The notes beneath the pieces were generated by a model that worked only from the letters and a program-made list of their open reading frames with translations, did not search any database and was not told the origin of the DNA. The translations under genes and the position numbers were made by a program. A stretch of 64,000 nt of DNA, taken from the NCBI RefSeq assembly GCF_009914755.1, contig NC_060931.1, one strand, 5' to 3'. Positions 28,941 to 53,712 of the stretch are shown here, one piece after another; within the stretch, counting starts at the first letter, position 1, and each line of letters begins with the position of its first letter. This DNA is from the human T2T-CHM13v2.0 reference genome, Homo sapiens.

Positions 28941-29798
28941 AGGCAAAATATCTGCGGCAATCTTAATCTTCTCCTATCAATTATTACTTCACAGGTCCTC
29001 TGTTAACTATTTAGTAGAAAGCATCCTTGGCTGTCAATGCTAACCTTCTGCACAGCTCTTATTTACACACACATTGCTCCTCATAACATCTGCTCTGCCC
29101 ACTGTAGCCTGCTTATCCTCTAATGGTCATCAGTATACTGAGTCCAAAGACAGGGAAGGAGTCAGGTACAAACGAGATGGAGAAGACAGGTAGTGGGGCT
29201 AAGGAAGCAAAGAACTGCTAAAGAGGGAAGTCAGCAGATAAATCTGCAGGAGAAAATCTGCAGCAACAAGGAGAAAAGAATCCTGAGTTGATACAAATTT
29301 GTTTATTGGTTTACATAATGGGAACATCATATGAAATGAAATTATCCTAAAATACAAAACATGATGACATTACAAACATTTCCCTTCTTTAAAAAAAAGT
29401 CTTTGCTGTATACAATTCCGTAACTAGAACTTGATAATCTGTTTGCAACGTGTCCCCCAGCGACAAGCAAGATGATTTTTCAAAAGTTGACTGTAAATGC
29501 TACATTTTTCAAAGGAAAGATATATAAAAGTGTGTGTGACAAAGACCTATGTCTCAGAATAACTTGGAAAAAAGTACAAATATTAAATTTTTATGATTTA
29601 TTGCCTGAAAGAAAGTTGTACACTTTTATATTCTGGGTATTCTTAATCTAAGAAGTCAAGAACATACTATGTATTACCAAACTGGGCAAGAGTTCAATGA
29701 GATTCTGAAAGTTATACCTAACGTACTATGTATTACCAAAAACATACAATATGTTTAGTAACAAATAGTATGTTAGGTATGTTAGGTATGACTGTTAG

Positions 29799-33372: not shown

Positions 33373-33899
33373 TTAAGATCAGATCCCTATGTTACTCATC
33401 CTTCCTGCCATATATATCTTTGTATCCAGGGCCTTTACCATAGCAGATATTAATACGTGTTGGCTATGCTGAATGATTTTTATGTTTGTTATCATTATTT
33501 CCTCCATTCTCCTAGCAGACACTCCTGTGAAATTTTTCAACTTTTAATAAAGGAAAATGGAGTTTTTACGCACAACTGGATTAGGTTAGAGAATAATGTA
33601 TGCAAAAGGGCCAGACGTAGTGAGAGCAAGACAGCAGTGAACTGTGGGGCAGGAAAGAATAGAGTAGAAAGGACATTTAAAATTCATATCTAACAGTTGG
33701 GGTCAGATATGAATTTTGCAAGCCGGGAAGGAGTAGGCAAACAAAGCGACAACCTAATCTTCATTCACAAAAAAAAAATATGACAAGCAAGGAATCAGGC
33801 AACTGTATTTTCAACATCTCCCTTTCTATGGTGTTTCTAACTCACAGCATACAGACATGTTGTTTCTCTCTCAAAAAATAAAATCTGAAGCAGTGATAT

Positions 33900-36945: not shown

Positions 36946-39900
36946 CAAAATGGAGGGAGACGTGGTCCAGCCATTCTAGGTTGGCACTCAGGAGACACTT
37001 ACCTCCAAAACACTATTATATATGTTGATTAGAGTCTACAGTACCACTAATATATAGTAAGCACACAATGAGTTTAAAAAGCTTTCCTTAGTACCTTTAG
37101 GAAAGTAAGTACTAGATTTCCTGGGGTTCTGATCTGGAAATCTAAATGCTACTTATTCCTATAAGTACATTGTTAACTTTACAAACAACAGACTTGAAAA
37201 TGAACTTGTGGAATACAATGGGTTCTTAAGTAAGGCTTTTCTTTAAGAATATTTTCTTGCTTCCACAAAAAATACAAAAGCCACCAAGGATAGAATGATT
37301 TTGCCTTGTTAACTTGTAAGAACAATGACACTAGAAGAAACCTATGGGAAATGTGCTTATCTGACCAGGTGCTCATTTTCGGTGGGCTGTCATTTGAATA
37401 AAACATCATACTAAACCCTACAGACCACAGCTTATGAGAGAAATGCCACAAACTATAGCAGTACAGTTAATATGCCTATAATCTACTGACAAAACATACT
37501 CCTCAGTAAAGTGAAACCAGATGTCTGGTGTGAAATCAGATGTCTGTGAACTTGTCTTTCTCAGTTTTCAGAGCAGTATCAGATATACTAAATACACAGC
37601 TAAGCTGTATATTAAATCCACAACTTAGCAAAATCATGACAGTTTGGACATGAAGCATCAGCATTTTTATTGTAATCCTTATAAACCAAAGACATTTCCG
37701 AAATGGAAATCCTAAGTTTAAGTACTCAGCTAAATACAGTAATATGTCTTTCTCACTTTAAGAATAGTGTCAGGGCTTTTTAAACACATTATAGAAATTC
37801 TTTCCCTTCATTTTTCAAGCTGACACTCTTTATCCAAGGCTGTGGAATGATCTGATAAGGCCACATCAGGTGTCAGTCCTCGTCCCAGAAATTCTAGGAT
37901 CAGATACACCAGGTGAACCCCTGTGAAAAGCAAATCCCAGGGAGGCTTAACAGCTATAGGAAAGTTAGGCACTACATGGCTTTCCACAATCAAAAGGAAG
38001 ATCATAGGAAAGTAATGGGTGACCACATAGAAAAACAGGGAAGGAAATTTAAAAGTAAGTACTTCTATGCCAGGCACTGTTTTTTCACACATTCTTTTAT
38101 GTATACTCTTTGTTCTGTTTTGATGGATAAGAAATCAAGCAGCAGAGAAATTTTAATGGCCCAAAGTGACACAGCTAATAAAATAAGAGCCAGAAATCAA
38201 GCTCATGTCCAAAAGACTGTAAAAGTCATGCTACTTCTACATGAAGTTGTGGGGTGGAGTGAGGAGGGGTGGTAAATAGCCAAGAAGAAGGAGAAAAAGA
38301 AAGAAATTTACAATTTTATCAAATAACAGTGAAATATATATATATAAAACATGTATTATGTTCCACATGTTCCATATATAATACGCAGTTAAGATGTATA
38401 CATGTTTAACATATACTTAAGCTGCATATTTAGTATGTGTATATATGGAACAAAAAGTTGAAGAAACAAGTATCAAATTGTTAAGTGGTCATCTGAAAGT
38501 GGACTCATAGGAAACTCACTTATTGCCTTTTATACCCTCCCAGATTTAATTCTAAATAACTTTTTTTTGACTTTTTATTACTCTTATAACCAGAAAAAGA
38601 CAAAGAACTATTCTAGCTTAGATCTTTTAAATGAGGCTAAATGCACAGAAACCCATGCAAGTTAAAAATGGTCTACTTTCGAATTTATTTTTCTAAGTAC
38701 ATCATCCTTTACACTCTCCATGATTCCTAATATTAGGTCCTTCTTATGGAACAACTACAAAAGTTATCCTCATCTAATTATTATACTCGTACACTGGAAA
38801 ATGACTATAACATTATTCATTATAGGAAACAAATCATCAAGGTCAGCCATCCTTGTAAGTTTATTACTGAAAGTACTAGAAAGGCGGAATAATAATTCTG
38901 TTCTCCCACAACACTGTATAGACCTGCAAACCACTATGATCAGTAGTACAGGGAAAGTCTTGTAAATTAACATGTAACTATTGAGAAAATCCACAAAACT
39001 GGTGAAAGGCCTACCCCAAAACAGCCATCTCCAATACAATCTCATCATTCTCACCATCCTACTTTTATCAAAGTGCTGATAAAAGTGCGTAGCACATGGT
39101 AAGAGAGAATTAGCTATTGAATCAATGAAGGAACCCATTATCAATAAACAATCACTTCCTGTTTTCCATAAATTATGTGGTCACCTATCACTTGAGCACA
39201 AACAAATAGGCACGTTCAGGACACAGGCAGCCAGTATCAGAATAGGCAGCCTATCACAGAGGGCAATTCTACTTTTCCTGTGTAAGAATCCAAGAATGCA
39301 GTTTTACTACATTCCTGCTTGTAGCTAATCTGAATTTCAACTAATTTAAAACGGTTATTTATATGTGACATATAGGATGCATAATGAGCTCCCAACCTTG
39401 TGAGAGGAGCTGTGTTTCATTTCACCATACAGGGGAGAGGGAAGCAGTGTATTAAAGAAGTGATAGAAAAGTCCCACAGAAGAACCAATGAAATAGACCA
39501 CACTGAAAATCACAGTAAGCCTCAGAGAACTTCAGTGTCCTTTTTGGCAACTTTTCAAAAGTGAATGGAATGCTTGCCAGGAGGTACCAAGAGTGAAAGC
39601 CCAGAGAAAAAGGCCCAGCCTGGTCATCTCTCTCCCCTCAAAACATCTTCTTCTGTAAGCTTGAGAGATCCCAAAGAACTTCAACACTTGTAATCTTGTT
39701 ACTAACTTTATGCTTTGGGGTCCTAAAGGATTTTTTCAGGAGTACCCTTTTAAAATGTAAACATCCCTAGGGGGGTTACTGTTCATTATCAAACAGGACC
39801 TGGATTCTTTAGTGCTATGGTCTCAGGGATTAGTCAAAGCTGGCTAATAAGATAGGGGCCGGAGACAGACAACTAGAGAGGACCAATGTTCCAAGGTAAA

Positions 39901-40175
39901 AACAGGTAAAGGGGAAGTGCAGTTTTCTGTCGGGTCAAGGGGCTAAAAGGGATCCACATGCCCAAGCTGTTAAACTCTATAGACTGTGTGAGGCTGAAAA
40001 CAGTCCGGGGCCTGGAGCCTGTGACTTTGAAGGTGGGTCCTCCAGTTCCCGATGAAAAGGTAGAATCTGGGCCCAAGTTCCCCACGAGCAGTTCTGGACA
40101 TCTAGCCCTTCTCTCTCTCGCTCGCTCTCAGGATAAAGTCCTAGGTCCTTCCACCCCTGACCATTCCTTACTTAC

Positions 40176-40620
40176 CCTTTCTCCCGCTCTTCCTCGGTGA
40201 GAAGGGGTAAGTGGTTATTTTGTGCCCTCGCCCAATTTGGCCAAAACCCTAAAAGTAAAAAACGACAGACAGACACGTGCTTTAAAATCATGTTGTTCAA
40301 GCCTGACGCTCTCCCACCACCTGCCCAACACTTCCAGGCAGAAGGCAGCGCGCCCCCACAGCGCTCCCTCACGGCCAGAGCCGGGGGCCGGACTAGGCCC
40401 CTTTGTGAGGACTGGGAGAGGGCGCGTTGTTGGGGCGCCGGCTCGGCGGGGAGGAGCGGGCCAGCTCCGGGCCAGGTGTGCCGCCTGTGGCGCCGGTTTC
40501 TCAACCTAGTTAGCCAGTGGCACCAAGAAGAGGACTAGGCTGGGGTGGCCGCCGCACGCGCCTCAGATAAACACGCGCACGCACACATGCTCGCGATCAC
40601 GCAGGACTCGCGGCCGCGCA
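40176..40620 (-). other. IMMP2L: Non-coding first exon (5'UTR) of a minus-strand gene, most likely IMMP2L (inner mitochondrial membrane peptidase subunit 2); 5' boundary approximate
   Basis: Lies in a CpG island and ends at a consensus donor GAGAAAGG|GTAAGT (intron starts at 40175). The exon end ...CACCGAGGAAGAGCGGGAGAAAGG matches my recollection of the IMMP2L mRNA just before GT-ATG-GCA-CAG (MAQSQGW). No coding exon in the 40 kb downstream fits a ~40 kb intron 1. Gene identity is from memory only. Confidence 0.72.
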
Positions 40621-40960
40621 CCCCTCCGCCTCCCGGCAACGCCCGCCCCGCCGGGGCCGGGGCCGACTCCCAGGGAAGGGTCCCCAGCCCAAGAGACCAC
40701 CAAGGGTCGGCGGCTACGCGCCCGCCGACCCCTGCCAGCCTCACAGCCCCCCACCCGCCGCCGGACGCCTGGCGCCCGCCCTCCGCACCCGCTGCGCAGC
40801 TCAGCCCGGGGGAAGTCCCCGCGCAGACCCCGCCCTCCGCCGGCGGCAAGCTCCGCCCCGCTGCCCCGTCGCGCGCTGGCCGCCCGAAGCTCCGCCCCCG
40901 GCGGAAAACTGGTCTCTGGACCGCCCGCCCAGGTCGGGCTCAAAATGCGGCGTGGATCTG
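40300..40960 (-). promoter_or_regulatory. CpG-island promoter
   Basis: Very high GC and CpG density. GC boxes (AAGCTCCGCCCC at ~40848 and ~40887, several CCGCCC), NRF1-like GCGCACGCAC at ~40575, TCGCGA core at 40591-40596, kB-type GGGGAAGTCCCC at 40809-40820. Confidence 0.9.
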
Positions 40961-41340
40961 AAAGGATCAAACACAACACTAATTCAGCAAGCTATTATTG
41001 AGCACTTGCCCTAAGCTCAGCAACGTACTAATGGGGGAGACTACAATAAAGAGCCGAAAAGTCTATGAAACTGTGTCTTCAGCTCTTCCTCTTGTTTTAG
41101 AAGCCAGGAAACAGAGAACCCTCACAGTTACTTAAGTACAGGGCAGTAGTGGCAAAGCACCTCACTAGCGATCTCTGGGCAACTCTTCATTTCATTTTTT
41201 CCTACTCATGAGCACTCAGGAAAACTATTCAGTTTTGCTGCCTCCAGGTAAAACAAAGTGAGTAACACAGGACAGGCGGTTTACTTGAGAGAAACGGGAA
41301 TTTCATACTGAAGCTTTTGCCCTCAAATGGTACAAACTCT

Positions 41341-43360: not shown

Positions 43361-44075
43361 TATGGAGACAGTAAAAAGATCAGTGATTGCCAGAGGTCAC
43401 AGAGGAGGGGGATATGAAGCACAGATTTTTAGGGCAGTGAAACTATTCTGTATGATATGATAATGGTGATGCATGTCATTATACATTTGTCCAAACCCAT
43501 AAAATATACAACCCAAAGAGGGAGCCTTAATATAAAATCTCAACTTTGGGTGATAATGATGTCAATGTAAGTTCATCAATTGTAACAAATATACTGCTCT
43601 GGTACAGGATATTCATAGTCAGGGAGGCTGTGCAGATGTGGGGTACAGGAATATATAGGAACCCTATACTTCCTGCTCAATTTTGCTCTGAACCTGAAAC
43701 TGATCTTTGGGAGAAAAAAGTTTATGAGAAAAAGAAGCAGCAGTTAGAGCATCCTATTTTATTCTAATTTATCAATTAAATTCTAAGCTGAATATTTGGC
43801 TTTATGTATCTAGTTCAAATATATTTGCCTTGTCTCCTTATATATTAAAGCAGACCTCTATTTGTTGTTAATACCATCAGGGGAAAATGAATCATAAAGT
43901 CCTAACTAAGGTACAAATTTAAACTATAGTTAGGCATCAAATCTAATGGTCAAAGAGATATTTAAACAAAGTTAAAATAATTAAGTTTACAGATTCCACA
44001 AATATAGATATTAAAATATATTCCTATCTATACATACTTACCATTGGTAAGCAAATAATAGAAGGTATCATAGAG

Positions 44076-50269: not shown

Positions 50270-51340
50270 TATCGGGGAATTTGCCCTGATATTCACGTAG
50301 GTTCTTTTCTATTTTTCCGAAGTGTCAGCCAGTTTGAGAAATAAAGGGACAGAGTACAAAAGAGAGAAATTGTAAAGCTGGGCATCCGGGGGAGACATCA
50401 CATGTCGGTAGGTTCTGTGATGCCCCACAAGCCACAAAAACCAGCAAGTATTTTTTAAGGATTTTCAAAAGGGGAGGGAGTGTGCGAATAGGTATGGGTG
50501 ACAGACATCAAGTACTTAACAGGGTAATAGAATGTCCCAAGGCAAGTGGAGGCAGGGCGAGAGCACAGGACCACAGGACCGAGGTGAAATTAAAATTGCT
50601 AATGAAGTTTCAGGCACCATTGTCATTGATAGCATCTTATCAGGAGACAGGGTTTTGAGATCAACCGGTCTGACCAAAATTTATTAGGTGGGAATTTCAT
50701 CTTCCTAATAAGCCTGGGAGCGCTATGGGAGACTGGAGCTTATTTCATCTCTGCAGTTTCGACCATAAGAGACAGGCACACCTTGCGGGGGCTGTTTATA
50801 AGCCTAAACCTCCAGGCGTGTATTCTCTTTCTCAGGGATGTTCCATGCTGAGAAAAAGAATTCAGCGATATTTCTCCCATTTGCTTTTGAAAGAAGAGAA
50901 ATATGGCTCTGTTCTGCCCGGCTCACCAGCGGTCAGAATTTAAGGTTATCTCTCTTTTTTCCTAAACATTGCTGTTATCTTGTTCTTTTTTCAAGGTGCC
51001 CAGATTTCATATTGCTCAAACACACATGCTCTACAATTTGTGCAGTTAATGCAATTATTACATGGTCCTGAGGTGACATACGTCCTCCTCAGCTGACAGG
51101 ATCAGGAGATTAAAGTAAAGACAGGCATAGGAAATCACAAGGGTATTGATTGGGGAAGTGATAAGTGTCCATGAAATCTTTGCAATTTATTTTTAGAGAT
51201 TGCAGTAAAGACAGGCATAAGAAATTATAAAAGTATTAATTTGGGGAACTAATAAATGTCCATAAAATCTTCACAATCCACATTCTTCTGCCATGGCTTC
51301 AGCCGGTCCCTCCTTTTGGGGTCCCTGACTTCCCGCAACA
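50270..51340 (-). mobile_element. MER11 (HERV-K11/HML-8) solo LTR
   Basis: Reverse start tgttgcgggaagtcagggacccc; perfect 6-bp TSD agaatt (50264-50269 and 51341-51346), the length typical of ERVK. Confidence 0.93.
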
Positions 51341-53623: not shown

Positions 53624-53712
53624 TTATGTTGGTGCAAATGTAATTGTGGTTTTTGCCATTAAAAGTAATTAAAAGTAATGGCAAAACCACAATTATGTTT
53701 GCACCAACCTAA
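53624..53712. mobile_element. MADE1 (Hsmar1 MITE; source family of miR-548)
   Basis: Hsmar1 TIRs tta(t)gttggtgcaaa...tttgcaccaacctaa with TA duplication; palindromic. Confidence 0.93.

What the first reader, a model, noticed from the sequence alone, without database searches (positions are those of the whole stretch)
40170..40212. Exon-1 5' splice site locked in a hairpin by an exon-encoded U1 snRNA mimic
Seen: 40170-40183 (acttaccctttctc) and 40199-40212 (gagaaggggtaagt) are inverted repeats with 13 of 14 pairs, extended by an inner CCG/CGG. The minus-strand RNA reads ACUUACCCCUUCUC-A-CCG-AGGAAGAG-CGG-GAGAAAGG|GUAAGU. The 5' arm ACUUACC is the same heptamer U1 snRNA uses (AUACUUACCUG) and it pairs with the entire donor, while the loop displays a purine-rich SR-protein-type motif (GGAAGA). 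Established: stems over donors regulate MAPT exon 10 and SMN2 exon 7, and U1 binding at the first donor suppresses premature polyadenylation in long introns. Inference: this is a structural switch gating U1 loading at the start of a very long-intron gene. If exon 2 begins GU-AUG as I recall, most of the stem survives splicing and covers the start codon, coupling splicing and translation control.
Basis: partly seen in the sequence, partly recalled or inferred. Interest (0 to 1): 0.85.

Follow-up and report, generated by a model that had tools for sequence, protein, structure and literature searches.

The report
Hairpin burying the IMMP2L exon-1 donor
A short, unusually stable RNA hairpin really does fold over the first splice donor of the human IMMP2L gene and survives next to the start codon after splicing, but this is a known kind of element and nothing yet shows it is a regulated switch or has been kept by selection.

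Summary
40170-40183 and 40199-40212 are a 13/14 inverted repeat. On the gene (minus) strand it folds into a -22.4 kcal/mol (43 nt) to -24.0 kcal/mol (53 nt) hairpin (z -4.8, 0 of 200 shuffles). The hairpin pairs donor positions -2 to +6 of the annotated IMMP2L exon-1 donor. Stem probability is 0.96-0.98 in contexts up to 742 nt. Freeing the donor costs 11.2 kcal/mol, against 3.0-4.7 for four other donors of the gene and -11.6 for the U1 duplex. I found exon 2 just below the window. "U1 mimic" is a tautology for any stem on a consensus donor. No donor-open conformer exists at equilibrium. The stem is weaker than the roughly -30 kcal/mol usually needed to inhibit translation. uORFs read through it. 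The stem is more stable on the opposite strand. Conservation could not be tested. Best reading: a constitutive brake on U1 access, a new member of the MAPT / HIV-1 SD class. Its origin may be neutral.

The parts
40199..40212 (-). 5' arm of the hairpin (exonic, ACUUACCCCUUCUC in the RNA); complement of the donor region
   Evidence: I7; pair probabilities 0.74-1.0 in contexts up to 742 nt.
40184..40198 (-). Apical part: bulged A, inner 3-bp CCG/CGG helix and 8-nt purine-rich loop AGGAAGAG
   Evidence: MFE folds. Resemblance of the loop motif to purine-rich exonic enhancers is recalled, not tested.
40170..40183 (-). 3' arm: last 8 nt of exon 1 (40183-40176) plus intron +1 to +6 GUAAGU (40175-40170); this is the donor. 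Position -3 (40178) is the C.A mismatch.
   Evidence: exon end 40176 from the hub annotation; U1 duplex 9 bp, -11.6 kcal/mol.
40176..40248 (-). 73-nt alternative internal 5'UTR exon (also the 3' end of the long exon 1, 40176-40817) that contains the exonic 37 nt of the hairpin
   Evidence: Hub annotation; acceptor tract ending AG before 40248 seen.
40319..40335 (-). Upstream exonic, donor-like segment predicted to hold the 5' arm before the 3' arm is transcribed (long-exon context only)
   Evidence: partners at P 0.12-0.44 in the 942-nt context; positions 1-4 and 6-8 of the 5' arm have unpaired probability 0.01-0.14 before the 3' arm exists.
39906..39918 (-). Intronic partial complement of the donor (+258 to +270) that pairs the donor in the only competing conformer
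40289..40291 (-). Upstream AUG of a 55-codon out-of-frame uORF (long exon-1 isoform) that reads through the hairpin and ends 50 nt past the main AUG

Best explanation
The element is a real local stem-loop in the IMMP2L 5'UTR exon. Its 3' arm is the exon-1 5' splice site (positions -2 to +6) and its 5' arm is an exonic complement 15 nt upstream.

Most likely mechanism: the small hairpin (8-nt loop) zips up as soon as the donor leaves the polymerase. It then acts as a constitutive brake on U1 snRNP access, not as a two-state switch. The brake is offset by the donor's near-consensus match to U1, and possibly by proteins on the purine-rich loop or by helicases, so the donor is still used.

After splicing, a shortened stem (about -20 kcal/mol) remains, ending at the AUG. 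It should have at most a mild effect on scanning ribosomes.

Shown: the sequence, the predicted stability and robustness, the persistence after splicing, and the comparison with other donors.

Inferred: that it forms in cells, that it slows splicing, and every statement about selection. The palindrome may have arisen neutrally, by chance or by a replication template switch.
For: - Inverted repeat and annotated donor coincide (hub table).
- Hairpin is -22.4 to -24.0 kcal/mol, z -4.83, 0 of 200 shuffles.
- Stem probability is 0.96-0.98 in six contexts from 51 to 742 nt.
- Donor opening cost is 11.2 kcal/mol. The gene's other donors cost 4.51, 4.69, 3.38 and 3.01. The median of 157 GTAAGT sites is 3.38.
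- Opening cost roughly equals the U1 duplex energy of -11.6, which is the strongest of the five donors compared.
- Only 2 of 2000 flank shuffles reach this cost.
- The locus is unique in the genome, so it is not a repeat family (1 match, itself).
- Literature, passages only: much weaker stems over donors already restrict splicing. The HIV-1 SD hairpin is -7.1 kcal/mol, and stabilising it lowers splicing (PMC4974535). MAPT exon 10 inclusion tracks the 5'ss unfolding energy (PMC9236610). In MLV, higher U1 complementarity or an RS domain tethered to the loop tip partly relieves structural attenuation (PMC2794156). That fits a strong donor plus a purine-rich loop as compensation.
- Both annotated exons that adjoin the hairpin end at 40176 (hub table), so the brake is not absolute.
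Against: - There is no experimental or evolutionary evidence. No vertebrate genomes are held, so conservation and covariation were not tested.
- All folding is equilibrium prediction on naked RNA. U1 snRNP travels with Pol II near the RNA exit (abstract listing of 10.1101/2020.10.19.344200) and could capture the donor first.
- In the long-exon context, the 5' arm is predicted to be already paired upstream when the donor emerges.
- The only imperfect pair is C.A on the gene strand and G.U on the opposite strand, where the hairpin is more stable (-27.8 kcal/mol, z -6.11). That is not what selection on the sense RNA would predict.
- An unrelated GTAAGT site (44041) reaches the same opening cost.
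- With 300 nt of intron included, the stem probability drops to 0.52.
- MLV data suggest that strong U1 complementarity can override structure.
Confidence: 0.5

Rival explanations
1. Neutral palindrome with no measurable consequence. The inverted repeat arose by chance or by a single replication template-switch event that copied the donor region in reverse complement. In cells the donor is captured co-transcriptionally by U1, or the stem is opened by helicases and hnRNPs, so splicing and translation are unaffected.
For: - Template switching can create near-perfect hairpins in one event (PMC8794818, passages).
- The palindrome is better on the non-gene strand (vs 4).
- About one such 13/14 arm at a real donor is expected genome-wide by chance (my estimate).
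- 2 of 2000 shuffles and 1 independent site of 156 other GTAAGT sites reach the same burial.
- The donor is used by both annotated exons that adjoin the hairpin (hub table).
- The heptamer arrangement is not enriched genome-wide (262 vs control 942).
Against: - The stem is far more stable than stems with proven effects, such as the HIV-1 SD hairpin at -7.1 kcal/mol.
- The loop is short and the fold is robust to context, so complete lack of effect would be somewhat surprising.
- The palindrome extends beyond the 14-nt arms by inner and outer pairs.
Confidence: 0.33
2. This is a regulated structural switch that gates U1 loading at the first donor and so controls premature polyadenylation in intron 1. 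The surviving stem then masks the AUG, coupling splicing and translation control.
For: - Exon 2 begins GT-ATG, and the stem persists with the A of the AUG paired (P unpaired 0.13).
- Five poly(A) hexamers at +1311 to +2019 precede the first other strong U1-type site at +3174.
- A transient alternative partner for the 5' arm exists at 40319-40335, inside the stretch that alternative isoforms splice out.
- The loop is purine-rich, and an RS domain at a loop tip can relieve attenuation in MLV.
Against: - No donor-open conformer at equilibrium, and no known trigger.
- The mRNA stem is -19.7 kcal/mol and at least 66 nt from the 5' end. That is weaker than the roughly -30 kcal/mol generally needed, and a -30 hairpin involving the AUG did not inhibit in COS cells (PMC5784139, passages).
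- uORFs in two of three isoforms translate through the stem.
- Intron 1 is 40.4 kb, not very long.
- No conservation data.
Confidence: 0.1
3. The functional strand is the plus strand, or the DNA itself. This would be a hairpin, or a donor-like GGG|GTAAGT at 40207, in an unannotated antisense transcript, or a palindromic protein-binding site at the edge of the CpG-island promoter.
For: - The plus-strand hairpin is more stable (-27.8 kcal/mol, z -6.11).
- Its mirror GTAAGT has the highest opening cost of the 157 sites (20.06).
- The mismatch becomes G.U on that strand.
Against: - No plus-strand gene is annotated here (hub table).
- Rfam finds nothing at the hairpin on either strand.
- 14-bp arms with a 15-nt spacer are not typical of a transcription-factor site (general knowledge).
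Confidence: 0.05

Closest known systems
MAPT (tau) exon 10 5' splice-site stem-loop
   Same: The 5' splice site lies inside a local stem. Unfolding energy of the -3..+6 segment predicts usage (PMC9236610, passages; review PMC7404189).
   Different: - MAPT regulates an alternative coding exon, with disease mutations and in-cell probing behind it. The IMMP2L donor is the only annotated donor for its exon, is non-coding, and has no experimental data.
- The MAPT partner strand is intronic and downstream (recalled). Here it is exonic and upstream.
HIV-1 major splice donor (SD) hairpin in the 5' leader
   Same: The first donor of the transcript sits in the untranslated leader, embedded in a hairpin whose stability sets splicing efficiency (PMC4974535, passages).
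   Different: - The viral hairpin is semi-stable (-7.1 kcal/mol) and supported by phylogeny and forced evolution.
- The IMMP2L stem is about three times more stable and untested.
Murine leukemia virus leader stem-loop attenuating the 5' splice site
   Same: Structure restricts U1 snRNP access. The effect interacts with U1 complementarity and can be relieved by an SR-type domain at the loop tip (PMC2794156, passages). This parallels a strong donor plus a purine-rich loop.
   Different: - The MLV structure lies upstream of the donor and is much larger (-61 kcal/mol).
- Its attenuation needs limited U1 complementarity, whereas the IMMP2L donor forms 9 bp with U1.
SMN2 exon 7 terminal stem-loop and PDCD1 exon 3 stem-loop
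   Same: Exon-end stem-loops at or next to the 5' splice site reduce U1 recruitment. In PDCD1 they present a loop motif to a splicing factor (review PMC7404189, passages).
   Different: Both control inclusion of an alternative cassette exon and have been validated by mutagenesis. Neither leaves a stem at a start codon.
Template-switch-generated hairpins
   Same: A near-perfect reverse-complement copy a few nucleotides from its source, able to form a hairpin in RNA (PMC8794818, passages).
   Different: That is a statement about origin, not function. The diagnostic lineage-specific mutation cluster could not be looked for here.

Membership tests
5' splice-site-sequestering stem-loop (MAPT exon 10 / HIV-1 SD type) | A used 5' splice site lies within the paired part of a local stem | tested here: met
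   Exon end 40176 (hub annotation). Positions -2..+6 are paired with P unpaired <= 0.06 for -2..+5 and 0.11-0.24 for +6, in contexts up to 742 nt.
5' splice-site-sequestering stem-loop (MAPT exon 10 / HIV-1 SD type) | Stability beyond what composition gives | tested here: met
   z -4.83 with 0 of 200 shuffles; 2 of 2000 flank shuffles reach the opening cost; rank 3 of 157 GTAAGT sites.
5' splice-site-sequestering stem-loop (MAPT exon 10 / HIV-1 SD type) | Structure forms in cells (chemical probing) | not testable with these tools
   No probing data are accessible. The search for IMMP2L + splice site + hairpin found 1 paper, an unrelated review.
5' splice-site-sequestering stem-loop (MAPT exon 10 / HIV-1 SD type) | Disrupting and compensatory mutations change and restore splicing | not testable with these tools
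   This is a bench experiment.
5' splice-site-sequestering stem-loop (MAPT exon 10 / HIV-1 SD type) | Conservation or covariation of the arms | not testable with these tools
   The own genome has no relatives held (text). The other collections are prokaryotic, viral or plasmid.
Two-state RNA switch | Two mutually exclusive conformers of similar energy, one exposing the regulated site | tested here: not met
   The hairpin has P 0.96-0.98 up to 742 nt. The competitor at 942 nt keeps the donor paired to 39906-39918. The only alternative is a transient pre-3'-arm pairing of the 5' arm.
Two-state RNA switch | A trigger (ligand, protein, temperature) that shifts the balance | not testable with these tools
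   None is known. The loop motif's resemblance to SR-protein sites is recalled only.
Translation-inhibiting 5'UTR hairpin | Stability at or below about -30 kcal/mol, or a cap-proximal position | tested here: not met
   The mRNA stem is -19.7 kcal/mol and starts 66, 270 or 606 nt from the annotated 5' end. The threshold is from PMC5784139 passages.
Translation-inhibiting 5'UTR hairpin | Start codon embedded in the duplex | tested here: inconclusive
   The A of the AUG is paired in the stem (P unpaired 0.13), the U is unpaired (about 1.0), and the G is paired elsewhere.
Described RNA families (Rfam 15, including miRNA precursors) | Match to a covariance model | tested here: not met
   E-value scan of 39500-41200 on both strands gave 3 weak hits, none overlapping 40170-40212.
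Template-switch-derived inverted repeat | Reverse-complement copy adjacent to its source | tested here: met
   13/14 arms 15 nt apart. This is necessary but not sufficient.
Template-switch-derived inverted repeat | Appears as a lineage-specific mutation cluster relative to outgroups | not testable with these tools
   No primate or other mammalian sequences are available.

The most novel reading that the evidence does not exclude
The hairpin is a conserved, dual-use element. On the nascent RNA it sets how fast U1 engages the first donor. That would decide between three outcomes: productive splicing, retention of the 5'UTR intron 40249-40584 (whose sequence supplies a decoy partner for the 5' arm), and early termination at the poly(A) hexamers 1.3-2 kb into intron 1. 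On the mature mRNA the same stem, now ending at the AUG, would work with the isoform-specific uORFs to set IMMP2L protein output. One stem would thus link 5'UTR isoform choice, transcript completion and translation.
Probability: 0.1. Interest if true: 0.65.

Novelty: new member of a known kind. Interest (0 to 1): 0.35.

Why it matters
IMMP2L is a roughly 900-kb gene at a fragile, deletion-prone locus that has been linked to neurodevelopmental disorders. That link is general knowledge; the one paper found is a Tourette syndrome review.

If the stem really limits U1 access at the first donor, it would be one of the most stable natural donor-sequestering hairpins in a human cellular gene. It would also give a simple handle, an antisense oligonucleotide to the 5' arm, for raising or lowering output of a dosage-sensitive gene. 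It would be a clean cellular counterpart to the retroviral leader hairpins.

If it is neutral, it is a useful calibration case. It would show that a -22 kcal/mol stem directly over a consensus donor can be tolerated in vivo.

Tried and rejected
- **Rfam scan** of 39500-41200 gave nothing at the hairpin.
- **Processed pseudogenes preserving the exon 1-exon 2 junction:** exon 1's last 245 nt match only themselves in the genome. The Peptidase_S26 matches elsewhere are IMMP1L-type pseudogenes, judging by their translations compared with my recollection of IMMP1L.
- **Finding exon 2:**
  - The signal-peptidase serine-box motif as one piece found nothing plausible in 240 kb, because the next intron splits the box.
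  - A strict exon-finder over the first 40 kb missed exon 2. Its donor starts GTGAAA, which does not fit my GT[AG]AG filter.
  - Pfam on the 45-residue exon-2 peptide gave only a weak, irrelevant DUF2798 hit. The identification of exon 2 therefore rests on the splice signals and open frame, on the hub table (gene continues below the window; no coding sequence inside it), and on my recollection of the protein's N-terminus.
- **Intronic near-copy of the 3' arm (40103-40113, I15) as a switch partner:** rejected, because the hairpin keeps P 0.98 when that segment is present (300+100 and 642+100 contexts).
- **Literature:** my first search was too loose and returned nothing on IMMP2L.
- **Not attempted:** scans of the viral, bacterial, plasmid or phage collections for orthologues, since they cannot hold a mammalian 5'UTR other than as contamination.
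- **Supplementary tables** of genome-wide pre-mRNA structure studies, which might list this locus, were not opened.

Full report
**What is there.** The repeat finder reports the same arms: 40170-40183 and 40199-40212, 14 nt, 93% complementary, 15 nt apart (pair I7). The hub annotation puts the end of IMMP2L exon 1 at 40176. That is also the end of a 73-nt alternative exon, 40176-40248. So the 3' arm consists of the last 8 exon bases plus intron positions +1 to +6 (GTAAGT). An acceptor-like tract ending in AG precedes 40248.

**Stability and robustness.**
- The 43-nt hairpin folds at -22.4 kcal/mol.
- With 5 flanking bases on each side it is -24.0 kcal/mol, z -4.83, and 0 of 200 dinucleotide shuffles fold as well.
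The same hairpin is present in both the MFE and the centroid.
- The mean probability of the 13 arm pairs is 0.96-0.98 in six contexts from 51 to 742 nt. It is 0.52 when 300 nt of intron are added.
- In that larger context the competitor pairs the 5' arm with exon 40319-40335 and pairs the donor with intron 39906-39918. The donor therefore stays paired.
- Position -3 (A, 40178) is the single C.A mismatch and is unpaired.

**How much the donor is buried.** Forcing -3..+6 single-stranded costs 11.2 kcal/mol in a 60+20-nt context.
- The same measure is 4.51, 4.69, 3.38 and 3.01 kcal/mol for the donors at 40585, 40789, 10828 and exon 2.
- The U1 5' end forms 9 bp with this donor (-11.6 kcal/mol, against -14.0 for a full consensus). 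That is the strongest of the five donors compared.
- The RNA-only balance between hairpin and U1 is therefore about even.

**Chance.**
- Among 157 GTAAGT sites on both strands of 304 kb, this donor ranks third (median 3.38, 99th percentile 11.43). First is its own mirror image on the plus strand. Second is an unrelated site at 44041, at 11.72 kcal/mol.
- With the donor core fixed and the flanks shuffled, 2 of 2000 shuffles reach the real value.
- The window has 6 inverted repeats of this quality, against a mean of 0.55 in 20 shuffles. One of the 6 is a TA microsatellite and one is a long palindrome.
- The 245 nt at the end of exon 1 are unique in the genome.
- My own estimate assumes equal base frequencies and roughly 2x10^5 donors. 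It gives about one 13/14 upstream arm at a real donor genome-wide by chance. A 0.1% rate of equal burial would give a few hundred donors.
- The stem is therefore unusual for this donor, but it is not beyond what a genome-wide scan should turn up.

**"U1 mimic".** Any strand that pairs with GGUAAGU must read ACUUACC, so the identity with U1 adds nothing. The genome holds 262 loci with that heptamer 3-33 nt upstream of GGTAAGT. The tool's control pattern gives 942. I suspect, but did not check, that satellite DNA inflates the control.

**Exon 2 and the mature mRNA.**
- The genome is held, so I fetched 240 kb below the window.
- Exon 2 lies at L006 9759-9623, with its first base at window position -241. 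A polypyrimidine tract and AG are followed by GT, ATG and an open frame of 45 codons. The frame ends at a GT donor that splits the catalytic serine box.
- Its identity rests on these signals, on the hub table, and on my recollection of the protein's N-terminus. Pfam on the 45-residue peptide was uninformative.
- Weak Peptidase_S26 matches further down C7 mark the distal coding exons.
- Intron 1 is 40,416 nt.
- I folded exon 1 joined to exon 2 inside a script. Ten of the 13 arm pairs and the 3 inner pairs keep P >= 0.85 in all four contexts tested. The minimal mRNA hairpin is -19.7 kcal/mol. The A of the AUG is paired at the foot of the stem, the U is free, and the G pairs elsewhere.

**Translation.**
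- A secondary source (PMC5784139, passages) states that inhibition is generally seen for hairpins below about -30 kcal/mol, and more so near the cap. It reports that a -30 hairpin involving the AUG in mid-5'UTR did not inhibit in COS cells. It also reports strong inhibition in reticulocyte lysate when the AUG was embedded in a -30 hairpin.
- Here the stem is -19.7 kcal/mol and begins 66, 270 or 606 nt from the annotated 5' end.
- The long exon-1 isoform has a uAUG at 40291 (55 codons). The 40585-donor isoform has one at 40588 (42 codons). Both are out of frame, run through the hairpin and stop 50 nt past the main AUG. Only the isoform with the 29-nt first exon is free of uAUGs.
- uORFs and isoform choice are therefore likely to matter more for translation than the stem does.

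**Switch or brake.**
- At equilibrium I find no conformer that frees the donor.
- Before the 3' arm is transcribed, and only when the whole long exon is present, the ACUUACCC part of the 5' arm is predicted to pair with a donor-like segment at 40319-40335 (unpaired probability 0.01-0.14 for 7 of its 8 bases; the A at 40208 stays unpaired). With only the last 300 nt or the 73-nt exon upstream, it is largely free.
- That segment lies within the stretch 40249-40584 that alternative isoforms splice out. A kinetic link to 5'UTR isoform choice is conceivable, but it is speculative.

**Strand asymmetry.** The one imperfect pair is C.A on the gene strand and G.U on the other strand. There the hairpin is -27.8 kcal/mol, z -6.11, and a donor-like GTAAGT sits at 40207. 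No plus-strand gene is annotated. This single position weighs slightly against selection on the sense RNA. It fits a DNA-level origin such as template switching, which can create near-perfect hairpins in one event (PMC8794818, passages).

**Premature polyadenylation.** Intron 1 carries 75 AATAAA/ATTAAA hexamers on the gene strand, the first five at +1311 to +2019. There are 17 internal GT sites with a U1 duplex of -9 kcal/mol or better, the first at +3174.

**Comparison with known systems** (passages only in each paper).
- Review PMC7404189 lists the MAPT exon 10 stem embedding the 5'ss, the SMN2 exon 7 stem-loop that inhibits U1 recruitment, and a PDCD1 exon 3 stem-loop whose loop binds MATR3.
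- PMC9236610 shows that 5'ss unfolding energy predicts MAPT exon 10 inclusion.
- PMC4974535 reports that the HIV-1 SD hairpin (-7.1 kcal/mol) partly suppresses splicing and that stabilising it lowers splicing.
- PMC2794156 shows, for MLV, that structure restricts U1 access, that stronger U1 complementarity relieves this 2.5-fold against 8-fold for opening the stem, and that an RS domain tethered to the loop tip also relieves it.
- The IMMP2L element has the architecture of this class and is more stable than the HIV-1 example. It pairs a strong donor with a purine-rich loop, which are the two features that counteract attenuation in MLV.
- A search for IMMP2L with 'splice site' and 'hairpin' found 1 paper, an unrelated review. 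I therefore found no prior description in the searchable library. Supplements of genome-wide structure studies were not examined.

**Verdict.** The element is a new member of a known kind. It is most likely a static brake on U1 access whose selective value is unknown (confidence 0.5). The main rival is a neutral palindrome without measurable effect (0.33). The decisive missing piece is a mammalian alignment of the 5' arm.

Noticed in passing
window 40289-40291 and 40586-40588 (minus strand): Upstream AUGs open out-of-frame uORFs (55 and 42 codons) that read through the hairpin and end 50 nt past the main IMMP2L AUG. They occur in the long exon-1 isoform and the 40585-donor isoform. The isoform with the 29-nt first exon has none.
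   Followed up: partly
window 40165-40217 (plus strand): The same palindrome is more stable on the plus strand (-27.8 kcal/mol, z -6.11). It carries a donor-like GGG|GTAAGT at 40207, which has the highest opening cost (20.06) of 157 GTAAGT sites. No plus-strand gene is annotated.
   Followed up: partly
window 40319-40335 (minus strand): A donor-like segment (…GGGCAG|GU…) is predicted to hold the 5' arm before the 3' arm is transcribed, but only in the long-exon context. It lies inside the stretch that alternative isoforms splice out.
   Followed up: partly
window 39906-39918 and 40103-40113 (minus strand): Two intronic look-alikes: a partial complement of the donor at +258 to +270, and a near-copy of the 3' arm at +62 to +73 (I15, 34, 35). 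Neither displaces the hairpin in contexts up to 742 nt.
   Followed up: yes
window 40350-40438: A GC-rich inverted repeat (21-nt arms, 86% complementary) gives a weak mir-922-like Rfam hit on the plus strand, at 26.6 bits against a gathering score of 95 (I1, 5). It is probably just CpG-island composition.
   Followed up: no
window about 53630-53710: A long, near-perfect palindrome that looks to me like a MADE1 / mir-548-type miniature transposon. That identity is recalled, not tested. It is one of the 6 inverted-repeat loci of the census.
   Followed up: no
window about 29710-29790, 33660-33740, 50800-50880; 34338: Three further short inverted repeats of the same quality, plus a TA microsatellite, picked up by the census.
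   Followed up: no
window 44041 (minus strand): An unannotated ATG|GTAAGTAT site has a donor opening cost of 11.72 kcal/mol, slightly above the IMMP2L donor.
   Followed up: no
L001 1474-1845 (+), L003 1227-1707 (+), L002 1438-1629 (-): IMMP1L-type processed pseudogene copies on C11 (63.62 Mb), C12 (112.99 Mb) and C17 (70.58 Mb). One has a 123-residue open frame. The assignment to IMMP1L is by recollection.
   Followed up: no
L006 9623-9759 (minus strand; window -241 to -377): IMMP2L exon 2. Its donor splits the catalytic serine box between two exons, and it has weak U1 complementarity (-8.6 kcal/mol).
   Followed up: partly
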